This document shows positions 9,136 through 61,404 of a DNA stretch of 64,000 nucleotides, piece after piece (positions within the stretch are counted from its first letter, which is position 1; every line of letters begins with the position of its first letter). This DNA comes from Leucoraja ocellata. Taxonomy: Eukaryota. Location: contig JAWMAR010000013.1 in NCBI GenBank assembly GCA_036785375.1, positions 310,001 to 374,000 on the forward strand, given 5' to 3'. The translations under genes were made by a program, and so were the position numbers. The notes under the pieces are model-generated. The model made no database searches. It was not told the origin of the DNA and worked only from the letters and a program-made list of their open reading frames with translations.

Positions 9136-10751
9136 CCTTTATTTCCATTTTACACAACCTTTCCAAACATTAAATATCAGAGGATATTTATCTCCCAGCC
9201 TTAGTTTCCCTGTGGCTAAGTTTCCATTATAGCAATCAGAAGCCTATCTGTGCTCTTAATTTGACCACCTTTTCACAAACCCCTGGCACTTTGAGATACA
9301 GCAATTGTAATTTAATTGCAGATTGGAAATAAATCCAATTGGAAGAAATTAAAAGTCACTGAGATAATCTATAGCAGGGATAGTCCGTGAGATAGAAACC
9401 CAGCGTGTAATAATAATAAAAAATGCACTTCGAATTGGCTGGTCTCAGAAAACTGTGGGGAGAGCTGTGCAAGAGGCACTTCTGGCTTATCTCTCATCTG
9501 TCCATGGAGCACTGATAAAATGTTTTACAACAATGCAAACAATACCATGACATGGAAAACATCTTCATTGCTGGTAATGAAAATGCAGTCACATTGCACG
9601 AGAGGCAGACCACAAGCCATTTCATTGCTACTGTCACGGAGATGAAGGGGGTGACTTTGGTCTCGTGGCTTCCTCAAATACACCATGCAGCATCTTGAAA
9701 GGCAGTGTGATGGGGGGGGAGGTCACAAAGAGGACACCATAATCAGATATTGGCCATTTGGTTTGCAAACATTTTTTTTTAATGAAGGACAAAGGGAAGG
9801 TTCGCAGTCTGGGACAATTTTGCCATTGTGTCATTTCCAAAGGGGGATTTACTGTTGCTTTCTTTGCAGTGCAACAGAGAATCCAGAATGCCATTTAGCT
9901 TTCTCCCACCTCACCTAATGGTGAGAGTAAATAGAAATCTCTGGTGAAATGAAATTTAGAATTACATGACTTGTGTAAATGAACAGAAAACTGCAGAGGA
10001 ACACACTAGGGACAATGTCTTTGTGCTAAATTCTCCTGCAAGAAACTGTAACTCTGTAACATTGTTTTTTCAGTTCCCATCTGATAGTCAATGAATTTAT
10101 AAGCTATATAATTTATAAGCCATTCGGCCCTTTGAGCCAGTACCGCCATTCAATATGATCATGGCTGATCATCCAAAATCAGTACCCCGTTCCTGCTTTT
10201 TCCCCCTTATCCCTTGATTACATTAGCATTGAGCTAAATCCAAATCACTCTTGAAACCATCCAGTGAATTGGCCTCCACTGCCTTCTGCAGCAGAGAATT
10301 CCACAGATTCACAACTCTCAGGGTTAAGGGTGTTTCCTCATCTCATTCCTAAATGGCCTACCCCTTATTCTTAAACTATGACCCCTGGTTATGGACTCCC
10401 CCAACATTTTCCCTGCATCTAGCCTGTCCAATCCATTAAGAATGTTATATTTTTCTATAAGATCCTCTCTCATCCTTCCAGTGAATACAAGCCCAGTCGA
10501 CCCATTCTTTCATCATATGTCAGTCCCGCCATCCTGTGAATTGACCTGGTGAACCTACGCTGCACTCCTTCAATAGCAAGAATATACTTCCTCAAATTAA
10601 GAGACCAAAACTGCACACAATACTCCAGGTATGTTCTCACCAGGGCCCTGTACAACTAAATTCCTAAATTCAAATTCTCTCGCAATGGGGGCCACCTTGC
10701 CATTAGCTTTCTTCACTGCCTGCTGTAACTGCATGCTTACTTTCAGCGACT

Positions 10752-10890
10752 TCTACTTCTTGCGTATGGCGTGCACAGCCTAAAGTTGTAGGACAACTTG
10801 TTCTATTTGATCTTATTTGATTGGGCACGCCGGGTTGATTGCATTCGTCGAATCAGGGAGGACCATGTGAAGGTTGCAATCTTTCACCCC
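10752..10890 (-). mobile_element. ~140-bp ribozyme-headed non-autonomous retroelement, copy 1
   Basis: Flanked by TTTCAG(C/T)GACT direct repeats (10741-10751, 10891-10901), AAG-type tail, colinear end to end with 60385-60522. Confidence 0.9.
10837..10890 (-). ncRNA. Putative minimal HDV-like (CPEB3-type) ribozyme, partly decayed
   Basis: Minus strand: GGGGTGA AA GATTGCA ACC TTCACAT GGT CCTCCCT G ATTCGA CGAA TGCAATC = P1, J1/2, P2, P3, L3, P3', P1', short linker, J4/2 (CGAA), P2'. P2 7/7 and P3 3/3 pair; P1 starts with G.U and has 2 mismatches. Confidence 0.7.
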
Positions 10891-59767: not shown

Positions 59768-60285
59768 AGGGGCCACACAGCACTTGCAGTGGCGGAGACC
59801 AGGGTTCGACCCCAACTACAGGTGCTGAATGTACAGCGTTCGTAATTCTCCACGTGACCGCGTGGGTTTTCTCCGAGATCGTAGCGGCAACTGCGGAGGG
59901 CTTGAGGAGGCCCTGACCACGGGGAACAATGGAGGAAGAGACTGACTTTGGTGCCTTCCCACACAGTGGGAAACTCTGATTCTGCTGTGTGGGGATGTTT
60001 TATGTCAAATTCTATAGTGTGTTGTGTTCTTTATTTTTATTGTATGGCTGTATGGGAATTTCATTTCGCTGTGCCATCTGGCACATGTGACAATTAAATG
60101 TATCTTGAGATTGTCGGTTTCCTCCCACACTCCAAAGACATACAGGTTTGTAGGTTAATTGGCTAGGTATTAATATAAATTGTCCCGAGTGTGTGTAGGA
60201 TAATGTTAATGTGCGGGGATCACTGGTCAGTGCGGACTCGGTGGACCGAAGGGCCTGTATCCGCACTATATATCTAAAAACTAAA
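59768..60285 (+). mobile_element. HE1-type SINE interrupted by a ~230-bp retroelement 3' fragment (59880-60110)
   Basis: B box GGTTCGACCC; the SINE body breaks at CTCCGAGAT and resumes at GAGATTGTCGGTTTCCTCCCACACTCCAAAGAC; the insert matches the 3' end of the 37407-38222 family. Confidence 0.8.
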
Positions 60286-60384
60286 GTATATTCAAAGCTA
60301 CTATGACTTGACTACAAGGATTGCAAGGGCAATGAACAACAAAGGTCACATCATCCATAACCTTACTGAATAACAGAGTTGGCT

Positions 60385-60438
60385 AGGGTGGGAGATTGCA
60401 ACCTCCACGTGGTCCACCCTGTTTCAACAAATGCAATC
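60385..60438 (+). ncRNA. Putative minimal HDV-like (CPEB3-type) ribozyme
   Basis: AGGGTGG GA GATTGCA ACC TCCACGT GGT CCACCCT G TTTCAA CAAA TGCAATC: P1 7/7, P2 7/7 and P3 3/3 Watson-Crick pairs in nested double-pseudoknot order, 7-nt L3, candidate catalytic C at 60428. Confidence 0.78.
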
Positions 60439-60522
60439 AACCTGGCGTGCACAAACAGAAGATCAAACAGAACAAGTTGTCTTACAACTTTAGGCTGTGC
60501 ACGCCATACGCAAGAAGAAGAA
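60385..60522 (+). mobile_element. ~140-bp ribozyme-headed non-autonomous retroelement, copy 2
   Basis: Perfect 16-bp TSD GAATAACAGAGTTGGC (60368-60383, 60523-60538); (AAG)n tail; same 5' boundary as copy 1. Confidence 0.92.
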
Positions 60523-61404
60523 GAATAACAGAGTTGGCACAGGAGTGGAATGTTCTCATTGCATAAGAACGTAGGAAGAGTATTAGCAATGAGTAGGAGT
60601 AGGCCATTTAGCCCTTTTAGTCTGCTATACCAATTAATAAAAACATAGCTTTGATCTTTGATTTCAGCTCAGGTTTCTGACCTGTTCTTCATCACCATCA
60701 TCAGCCAACTGTGACACAACCTTCAGGTACCTTTGATGAGCATCATGCACGCAAACAATTGCTCAGAGTATACAGTAGCTGCAGTCCTCTGAACGTCGTC
60801 TACAGATCGAAAACAAGAGCTGTCCCATTATTTGAAGGTCAATATCAAAGAAATAAAATAATAATTGCTGGTCATCTGAAGTTGCCTGTCAGTCATTTCA
60901 CTCATGTAGAATAATTGCTCCAGCTGATGTTCTAAGGGCGTTCAGGGCACATTCACTAACTGAAGAAGTTTGTCATTGAGCTAGAGGTGATGATGTCATG
61001 GTCACCGCCCAATAAACTTATCTCTGTAAAGCTGTAAGCACGAGGTGGAAGTGGATAATGGCTACAGCAAAGTCTTTCTAACACCCGTTGCCCCCATGTA
61101 TTGGTATTGGTTTATATGTCACAGAGCTGTGGTGCTCTTGATCTGTTTGCACAGGGGTGTCCACATTTACCCTCCCCTTTCCCAGAGTGAAGGGCTCGTC
61201 TCCTGCTGTCTCATCCATTAGTAAAGTGTTGAAGCTGGGGAAACACGATGGGCAAGGGCTACCTGTGTCTCTGTTGCAAGGCTACACACAGAGACCAAAT
61301 CAATTAAAAGCCTCTGTCCCCCTTCCCCCCCCCACCCCCCCCATCACAATTAATAAAGGGTAGGCATGAAGTTGTTTACTCAAGCTCAGAAGGCTCACCG
61401 AGTC

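What the first reader, a model, noticed from the sequence alone, without database searches (positions are those of the whole stretch)
60368..60538. 140-bp retroelement headed by a minimal HDV/CPEB3-like self-cleaving ribozyme
Seen: the first 54 nt parse as P1 AGGGTGG/CCACCCT, P2 GATTGCA/TGCAATC, P3 ACC/GGT, L3 TCCACGT, a single G after P1', a ~6-nt linker in place of P4, and J4/2 CAAA. The insert has a perfect 16-bp TSD and an (AAG)n tail, but no ORF and no tRNA A/B boxes. Known: this helix order is the HDV-like nested double pseudoknot. The CPEB3 ribozyme has L3 UUCACGU and J4/2 CGAA (recalled), which matches the consensus of the two copies here (GGGGTGG GA GATTGCA ACC TTCACGT GGT CCNCCCT G TTTCGA CGAA TGCAATC). 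HDV-like ribozymes cut just 5' of P1 and define the 5' ends of R2, RTE and L1Tc/Ingi-type retrotransposons. Inference: this is a SINE-like parasite that needs no Pol III promoter, because it excises its own 5' end from host read-through transcripts and borrows a LINE's RT. I am not aware of such a P4-less ribozyme-SINE being described in cartilaginous fish, but I cannot search to confirm novelty.
Basis: partly seen in the sequence, partly recalled or inferred. Interest (0 to 1): 0.93.

Follow-up and report, generated by a model that had tools for sequence, protein, structure and literature searches.

The report
Ribozyme-headed miniature Vingi retrotransposon
This is one of thousands of copies of a cut-down jumping gene that keeps only the two ends of a full-length parent; its front end folds like a very small self-cutting RNA, and related jumping genes carry a front end almost identical to the ribozyme in the mammalian memory gene CPEB3.

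Summary
Observation confirmed. The 139-bp insert (60384-60522) has a 16-bp target-site duplication and belongs to a dispersed family: 6,463 exact matches to the ribozyme core in the assembly, inflated by duplicated contigs. Its first 54 nt fit the HDV-like fold. P1, P2 and P3 are rewritten by compensatory changes across five ribozyme-headed families of this genome, and copies start at G1. It is not a SINE that gained a ribozyme. I found the parent, a single-ORF APE-RT LINE of Vingi type. It has the same P4-less ribozyme in its 5' UTR and the same 3' end. The element is the parent's first 79 nt, a 13-nt filler and its last 35 nt plus tail: a short internally deleted element like R2 SIDEs, NARTc and hedgehog Vingi derivatives. 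P4-less ribozymes are already known in silkmoth R2. Cleavage and mode of transcription are untested. The side result matters more. Sister families here, and the Repbase Vingi-2_Gav 5' end, match the mammalian CPEB3 ribozyme almost letter for letter (55/62 and 52/54). This points to a Vingi origin, which I did not find in the searchable literature; three key papers were unavailable.

The parts
60368..60383 (+). 5' target-site duplication (16 bp)
   Evidence: identical to 60523-60538
60385..60438 (+). P4-less HDV-like ribozyme fold (54 nt); predicted cleavage just 5' of 60385; predicted catalytic C at 60428
   Evidence: descriptor parse and shuffle control; covariation across five families; weak Rfam RF02682 match; activity not tested
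60385..60463 (+). 5' part, derived from the first 79 nt of the parent LINE's 5' UTR (parent ATG at nt 107)
   Evidence: alignment to parent 5' end L135; 14 of 20 fetched parent 5' ends carry the same ribozyme
60464..60476 (+). 13-nt junction filler not found in the parent's ends; begins as a short duplication of the preceding 5' UTR letters
   Evidence: comparison with parent and older derivatives; the duplication reading is by eye
60477..60511 (+). 3' part, derived from the parent's last codons, its stop codon (60491-60493) and its 18-nt 3' UTR
   Evidence: blastn to parent 3' ends; same junction seen as loose ends at 60483 in two other organisms' contigs
60443..60506 (+). long hairpin: 11-bp outer stem joining a 5'-UTR-derived arm (60443-53) to a 3'-UTR-derived arm (60496-506), with an inner 7-bp hairpin
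   Evidence: MFE fold; whole-element z only -1.8
60512..60522 (+). (AAG)n tail
   Evidence: sequence; same tail on the parent and on Vingi family 1
60523..60538 (+). 3' target-site duplication
10751..10890 (-). second, older copy of the family (subfamily B), with mismatches in P1 and L3

Best explanation
A bipartite non-autonomous derivative (SIDE) of a Vingi-type LINE. Shown: shared 5' and 3' ends with an APE-RT LINE, target-site duplications, high copy number, a start at G1, a conserved and covarying HDV-like fold. Inferred from HDV, R2 and L1Tc biochemistry: a Pol II transcript that runs into a source copy is cut by the ribozyme just 5' of G1, which frees a defined 5' end. The parent's APE-RT protein, supplied in trans, binds the short 3' UTR and (AAG)n tail and does target-primed reverse transcription, giving full-length copies with duplications of about 10-14 bp. 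The ribozyme lost P4 in the parent lineage, before the deletion. Whether transcription starts upstream (read-through) or inside the element is open.
For: Parent 3' ends: 4 of the first 100 listed (536 total) tail matches lacking the element's 5' register are LINE coding ends. 11 of 11 fetched 3' hits end in the element's last 35-46 nt. The closest database protein, P0001 (1019 aa, 75% identical to a parent fragment), has APE, RT, a weak zf-RVT hit and no RNase H at E<=0.1. Parent 5' ends: 14 of 20 fetched carry the same P4-less ribozyme ahead of the ATG, and none shares sequence upstream of G1 (by eye). L116/L117 is one insertion running from J4/2 through the ORF to the tail with a flanking duplication. 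At least four different deletion junctions exist among short copies. No longer-P4 family of this ribozyme: 61 of 61 longer-linker hits look like single-copy accidents (by eye). 5' ends: 51 of 70 copies have the duplication flush with G1, 10 within 1 nt, 2 further off, 7 none; among 20 copies picked without regard to the 5' end, 16 are flush. Fold: 95.5% of cells paired, 11 of 17 pairs with two-sided changes, covariation 0.70 against 0.24 shuffled and at most 0.13 slid. 95 of 100 listed copies keep the catalytic C (counted by eye).
Against: No cleavage or RNA-end data; contigs cannot show RNA starts. No single locus with a complete ribozyme and a colinear tail was found: 0 of 10 windows checked at the expected distance; one reached residue 942, one had the tail but no ribozyme. 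No intact parent ORF was seen. Only 2 of the 14 ribozyme-bearing parent 5' ends reach G1; the rest are clipped 3-13 nt inside, several at inversion junctions. Covariation rests on 13 hand-picked sequences from five families, not on changes within this family, whose copies decay neutrally. 9 of 21 subfamily-B copies have a mismatch at the top of P1. With its real 30-nt leader the window copy's MFE is a non-native fold (-19.2 kcal/mol, against -12.8 for P1+P3 alone; no pseudoknots modelled). The Vingi label rests on architecture and on likeness to family 1, not on an RT tree with reference elements.
Confidence: 0.82

Rival explanations
1. Same origin, but the 5' segment works mainly as an internal Pol II promoter, like Pr77 of L1Tc; the ribozyme is slow or secondary, and the precise 5' end is a transcription start.
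For: Pr77 is both promoter and ribozyme (PMC4035085 passages). PMC5786205 expects bipartite LINEs to be Pol II transcripts. Dispersed insertion gives no guaranteed upstream promoter. A P1 mismatch occurs in part of subfamily B.
Against: Stems are rewritten with compensation between families while L3 and the J4/2 C are kept: an RNA-level constraint. The two roles are not exclusive.
Confidence: 0.25
2. The ribozyme is a dead relic in the short element: the fold is inherited from the parent, but the element spread without cleavage.
For: Individual copies show CpG decay in P1', the linker and J4/2. P4 is said to stabilise HDV-like ribozymes, and the P4-less silkmoth R2 ribozyme has very low activity (PMC3774820).
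Against: Subfamily-level changes fall in J1/2, J4/2 position 2 and a U-A to U-G wobble, all compatible with the fold. 5' ends stay at G1. P4-less phage ribozymes cleave and are killed by C-to-U (PMC10879173).
Confidence: 0.1
3. One reading: a true SINE with an independently acquired ribozyme head and only a LINE-derived tail.
For: SINE-like size and copy number; a 13-nt filler absent from the parent's ends.
Against: The whole head and the following 25 nt are the 5' UTR of the same LINE that gives the tail.
Confidence: 0.03

Closest known systems
R2 SIDEs of Drosophila (Eickbush and Eickbush 2012, PMC3414825; passages read)
   Same: 5' HDV-like ribozyme joined to the parent's 3' end, no ORF, mobilised in trans; ribozymes shown to cleave
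   Different: R2 clade, rDNA-specific, larger ribozyme; here APE-type parent, dispersed, thousands of copies, 54-nt ribozyme
NARTc, RIME and SIDER of trypanosomatids (PMC4035085 passages; PMC3383444 listing)
   Same: internally deleted Ingi-clade elements headed by an HDV-like ribozyme; dispersed; Ingi is Vingi's sister clade
   Different: 77-nt Pr77 that is also a promoter; protist hosts; the parent has RNase H
Non-autonomous derivatives of Vingi-1_EE in hedgehog, and SINE2-1_ACar / SINE2-1_AMi (as cited in PMC5786205; Kojima 2011 itself not held)
   Same: internal deletion of a Vingi LINE keeping both ends
   Different: [quoted passage not shown]
P4-less HDV-like ribozymes: silkmoth R2, abalone (PMC3774820); drz-Mtgn-1 and theta ribozymes of gut phages (PMC10879173)
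   Same: short linker instead of P4; catalytic C first in J4/2
   Different: silkmoth R2 has a J1/2 of over 200 nt, here 2 nt; the minimal compact forms were reported nearly all from phages, with human, mouse and protist genomes searched
Mammalian CPEB3 ribozyme (Rfam RF00622)
   Same: 7-nt L3 with the ACGU palindrome, single G then U after P1, C-G-A-A J4/2 in subfamily B, G1-U wobble
   Different: this element lacks P4, has different stems and does not reach the Rfam cut-off; sister families in the genome do

Membership tests
HDV-like ribozyme | P1/P2/P3 nested pseudoknot order with 7-bp P1, 3-bp P3, 7-nt L3 | tested here: met
HDV-like ribozyme | purine 1 paired at the base of P1 (G-U wobble); catalytic C first in J4/2 followed by a conserved A | tested here: met
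   G at position 1 in 64 of 70 copies; C in 95 of 100 listed; the window copy has A-U at pair 1
HDV-like ribozyme | P1.1 between L3 and J1/4 | tested here: inconclusive
   one C-G plus U-U is possible in the family, as described for CPEB3 (bioRxiv 2022.09.22.508989); C-G plus C-U in the window copy; no covariation to test
HDV-like ribozyme | P4 helix (optional) | tested here: not met
   6-nt linker in element and parent; P4 is dispensable per PMC3774820 and PMC10879173
HDV-like ribozyme | Mg2+-dependent self-cleavage 5' of position 1, lost with C-to-U | not testable with these tools
   needs an assay
Rfam CPEB3_ribozyme RF00622 | score at or above 35 bits | tested here: not met
   element: no hit (L135 and L153 also none). 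Sister families: 56 of 59 scored loci pass
Bipartite non-autonomous LINE (SIDE) | 5' and 3' termini both from one autonomous LINE, ORF deleted | tested here: met
Bipartite non-autonomous LINE (SIDE) | retroposition marks: target-site duplication, simple-repeat tail, many dispersed copies | tested here: met
tRNA/7SL/5S SINE (Pol III) | small-RNA-derived head with A/B boxes | tested here: not met
   the head is LINE 5' UTR
Vingi clade (parent) | compact single ORF, APE plus RT, no RNase H (PMC13708176) | tested here: met
   P0001 and family 1 Pfam scans; tested on the closest database protein and broken genomic copies. RTE shares this layout
Vingi clade (parent) | sequence kinship to a named Vingi element | tested here: inconclusive
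   family 1's 5' end closely resembles Vingi-2_Gav as printed in the PMC5786205 supplement (by eye); P0001 is 32-40% identical to family 1 protein. The C-terminal Cys/His motif as a Vingi/Ingi-not-RTE mark is recalled
Vingi clade (parent) | placement in an RT phylogeny with reference clades | not testable with these tools
   no Repbase or Dfam reference set available

The most novel reading that the evidence does not exclude
Vingi LINEs as a clade begin with a CPEB3-type ribozyme, and the single conserved mammalian CPEB3 ribozyme is the domesticated 5' end of an ancient Vingi insertion. The element here is the stripped-down extreme of that ribozyme lineage (54 nt, no P4, 2-nt J1/2), spread in thousands of possibly still-cleaving copies. 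Vingi ribozymes would then supply the outgroup that CPEB3 studies say is missing.
Probability: 0.7. Interest if true: 0.72.

Novelty: new member of a known kind. Interest (0 to 1): 0.5.

Why it matters
The element itself is a new, very compact and abundant member of a described class. It adds Vingi to the LINE clades with a predicted 5' ribozyme. It also defines a minimal cis-acting template (79 + 35 nt) for a clade now used in RNA-based gene writing (PMC13708176). The larger point is the origin of the CPEB3 ribozyme. It is described as not found outside mammals and lacking outgroups (PMC8233481). Near letter-for-letter identity of its stems with Vingi 5' ends gives a concrete donor, an outgroup for ancestral reconstruction, and a simple flank test at the CPEB3 locus.

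Tried and rejected
Rfam at gathering score on the window: nothing. A genome search with the minimal HDV model RF02682: 28 matches of 62 scored, none over the cut-off, not followed up. A P4-bearing ancestor of this ribozyme in the genome: none among 61 hits. The first three parent loci fetched were short 5'-truncated ends, and three more stopped inside the RT region. A complete colinear parent: 0 of 10 windows. Linking the most CPEB3-like family (L053, L055, L056, L061, L062, L065) to an ORF by blastx: 0 of 6; families 1, 2 and 4 do link to APE-RT sequence. Host gene context: 0 of 19 window ORFs match Pfam, so the orientation of the copies relative to a host gene was not tested. PDB sequence search gave only generic L1/R2/group II RT hits. 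Earlier scan findings: none in 3 look-ups. Ruminski 2011, Kojima 2011 and Webb 2009 are not held.

Full report
OBSERVATION. The insert lies between two identical 16-mers (60368-60383, 60523-60538) and is 139 bp long; a second copy, 88% identical, lies at 10751-10889 on the minus strand. A generic HDV-like descriptor finds only these two sites in the window, against 0.033 hits per shuffle over 60 shuffles. Rfam gives nothing at gathering score and a weak HDV-F-prausnitzii match on the element (19.4 bits, E 0.18). No tRNA gene and no exact A/B box (box consensus recalled).

A LARGE DISPERSED FAMILY. The genome has 3.44 Gb in 5,847 contigs. The element gives 2,539 first-look candidates, of which 40 were scored at 97-100% identity; the second copy gives 423, with 40 scored at 93-100%. 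An exact pattern for P2-P3-L3-P3', an 18-nt gap and P2' has 6,463 matches and 0 for the reversed control. This undercounts decayed copies and overcounts duplicated contigs: both window copies recur on C243 at nearly the same spacing, and 18 of the 100 listed hits sit in two tandem clusters on C1. Mean divergence from group consensus is 1.6% (30 best hits, biased low) and 3.5% (21 copies). Sequencing runs of six coded organisms hold the stretch. In three contig sets from three organisms coverage begins at about 60386 and ends at about 60522, with mixed flanks.

THE 5' END. Of 70 fetched loci, 51 have a duplication ending flush with P1 position 1, 10 within one base, 2 further off and 7 none (one mismatch allowed for 10 nt or more; no shuffled control; a few loci are duplicates of each other). 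Fifty of these were best BLAST hits and so favour full-length copies. Among the 20 picked from pattern lists that did not require the 5' end, 16 are flush and 4 have no duplication found. 64 of 70 start with G. The window copy's A at position 1 is probably flank, because its duplicate L005 has one more G.

THE PARENT. A tail pattern with letters excluding the element's own 5' register gave 536 hits; 4 of the 100 listed were coding sequence ending in a stop codon followed by the element's 3' end. That coding end has 996 first-look candidates, and 11 of 11 fetched copies end in the element's last 35-46 nt. A parent RT fragment found P0001, 1019 aa and 75% identical, with APE, RT, a weak zf-RVT match and no RNase H. 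P0001 located longer, broken copies. L116/L117 is a single insertion that begins inside J4/2, runs through the 5' UTR and ORF and ends in the tail with a flanking duplication. Searching with its UTR-ORF junction gave 51 candidates and 40 scored. Of 20 fetched, 14 carry the same P4-less ribozyme, none shares sequence upstream of G1, and only 2 reach G1; the others are clipped, several at inversion junctions. The ATG is at nt 107. No complete colinear copy turned up in 10 windows checked, and no intact ORF was seen. The element therefore equals parent nt 1-79 (60385-60463), a 13-nt filler, the parent's last 35 nt (60477-60511) and the tail. Other short families with different junctions exist, so the deletion happened several times. 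Loose ends at 60483 in runs X15 and X19 show the parent's coding letters joined to the same tail in two other organisms.

THE FOLD. No family with a longer P4 exists for this ribozyme: all 61 longer-linker hits look like single-copy duplications or chance downstream matches (by eye). Copies within the family cannot show covariation, but the genome holds other ribozyme-headed families. The Rfam CPEB3 model scores 56 of 59 examined loci over its cut-off. Family 1 is a 3.1-kb APE-RT LINE with an (AAG)n tail. On an alignment of 13 hand-picked sequences from five families, 95.5% of cells pair, 11 of 17 pairs change on both sides (P1 3, P2 5, P3 3), and the covariation score is 0.70 against 0.24 shuffled and at most 0.13 slid; two of the five measures do not exceed shuffles clearly (38/500 and 257/500). 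Sequences within a family are not independent. Subfamily-level changes in the element fall in J1/2, in the second base of J4/2 and in one U-A to U-G pair; a mismatch at the top of P1 occurs in 9 of 21 subfamily-B copies. Downstream of the ribozyme, arms from the parent's 5' and 3' UTRs pair. In eight hand-picked copies the hairpin goes from -13 to -15 kcal/mol in parent-like copies to about -23.5 in subfamily A, with one decayed B copy at -11.9. This may insulate the ribozyme or bring the ends together (inference).

MECHANISM. Shown: origin, ends, copy number, fold. Inferred from R2 and L1Tc: co-transcriptional cleavage 5' of G1 frees the RNA from upstream sequence, the parent's protein binds the 3' end and primes reverse transcription at a nick, and a full-length copy is inserted with a short duplication. 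I put this at 0.82. The main rival is that the same segment is also or mainly an internal promoter, as Pr77 is. With its own 30-nt leader the window copy prefers a non-native fold in a pseudoknot-free model, so this particular copy may cleave poorly.

COMPARISON WITH WHAT IS KNOWN. R2 SIDEs are a ribozyme joined to a 3' end and were shown to cleave (PMC3414825, passages). NARTc and RIME are deleted L1Tc/ingi elements headed by the Pr77 ribozyme-promoter (PMC4035085, passages). [quoted passage not shown] A review says some non-autonomous SINEs use HDV-like ribozymes (PMC6765202, passages). P4 is absent in five silkmoth R2 ribozymes and replaced by 5 nt in an abalone ribozyme (PMC3774820, passages). 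Compact P4-less forms were reported nearly all from phages (PMC10879173, passages). So neither the architecture nor the loss of P4 is new. A predicted ribozyme on Vingi, at this size and copy number, was not found in searches.

THE CPEB3 LINK. L053 equals the Rfam mammalian CPEB3 consensus at 55 of 62 model positions 17-78, with one extra base (counted by eye). The 5' end of Vingi-2_Gav, printed in the supplement of PMC5786205 (passages), equals that consensus at 52 of 54 positions outside the distal P4 (by eye); the paper's main text never mentions CPEB3. Identity extends through the stems, which differ freely between other HDV-like ribozymes, including this element's (20-31 of 49 core columns shared with the sister families). 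This argues for common descent rather than convergence. [quoted passage not shown] A review mentions structure-based hits in lamprey and lancelet (PMC8256844, passages), another suggests domestication in general terms (PMC7761336, passages), and ancient Vingi traces exist in the human genome (PMC5753468, passages). 'Vingi' with 'CPEB3' gives 0 papers; searches listed no paper naming a donor, judged from listings and the passages read. Against: the most CPEB3-like family here was not tied to an ORF (0 of 6); I could not examine the mammalian locus; and Ruminski 2011, Webb 2009 and Kojima 2011 were not held, nor could Repbase or Dfam notes be searched, so priority is uncertain. Also seen as passages without changing the reading: bioRxiv 2022.09.22.508989, PMC4908430 (a reference line only), PMC3747384, PMC10919898, PMC13708176. 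bioRxiv supplements were closed and were not needed for these claims.

VERDICT. Real and well explained: a new member of the SIDE class from a Vingi-type parent, with a compact predicted ribozyme. Interest 0.5, carried mostly by the lead on the origin of the CPEB3 ribozyme.

Noticed in passing
L053:3886-3956(-); L055, L056, L061, L062, L065; 56 loci: Families with P4-bearing ribozymes that pass the Rfam mammalian CPEB3 cut-off; L053 is 55/62 identical to the Rfam consensus. With Vingi-2_Gav this suggests a Vingi origin of the CPEB3 ribozyme.
   Followed up: partly
L046, L048, L049, L051, L054: Vingi family 1: about 3.1-kb full-length copies with CPEB3-like ribozyme, APE-RT ORF (broken in the copies seen), (AAG)n tail and target-site duplications; 5' end close to Vingi-2_Gav.
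   Followed up: partly
L036, L041, L058, L060, L114, L115: At least three more ribozyme-headed families, some with their own internally deleted forms; L114/L115 carry a divergent version with a long region after P1 that no model scored.
   Followed up: no
L031, L034, L040; parent copies L121, L122, L123, L128, L129, L131, L133, L135: Many LINE copies have the 5' half inverted, with the ribozyme facing the internal junction, as twin priming would give if the second primer ran to the RNA's 5' end.
   Followed up: no
L145-L152: Further short derivatives of the same parent with different deletion junctions (after about nt 85-95 of the 5' UTR).
   Followed up: partly
L153, L155-L157: Subfamily C's last bases before the tail have shifted towards the 3' end of Vingi family 1; possibly a switch of helper enzyme.
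   Followed up: no
window 60443-60506: The 5'-UTR and 3'-UTR arms already pair over 8 bp in the parent, where they lie 3 kb apart; the stem is longer in younger subfamilies of the short element.
   Followed up: partly
G000:C243:3369651-3419559: Both window copies recur on C243 at nearly the same spacing: uncollapsed haplotype or segmental duplication.
   Followed up: no
G000:C1:19261560-19279255 and 19408515-19431509: 18 copies of the element at about 2-kb spacing in two opposed clusters, apparently carried in a tandem repeat.
   Followed up: no
many small contigs (e.g. G000:C1489:208512-208580): 26 sites with the identical score of 32.1 bits to RF02682, one per small contig: a homogeneous repeat with a weak HDV-like match; one site on C293 scores 41.6 bits.
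   Followed up: no
window 59800-60290: Fragments of other abundant SINE-like repeats just upstream (likeness to V-SINE/HE1 recalled, not tested).
   Followed up: no
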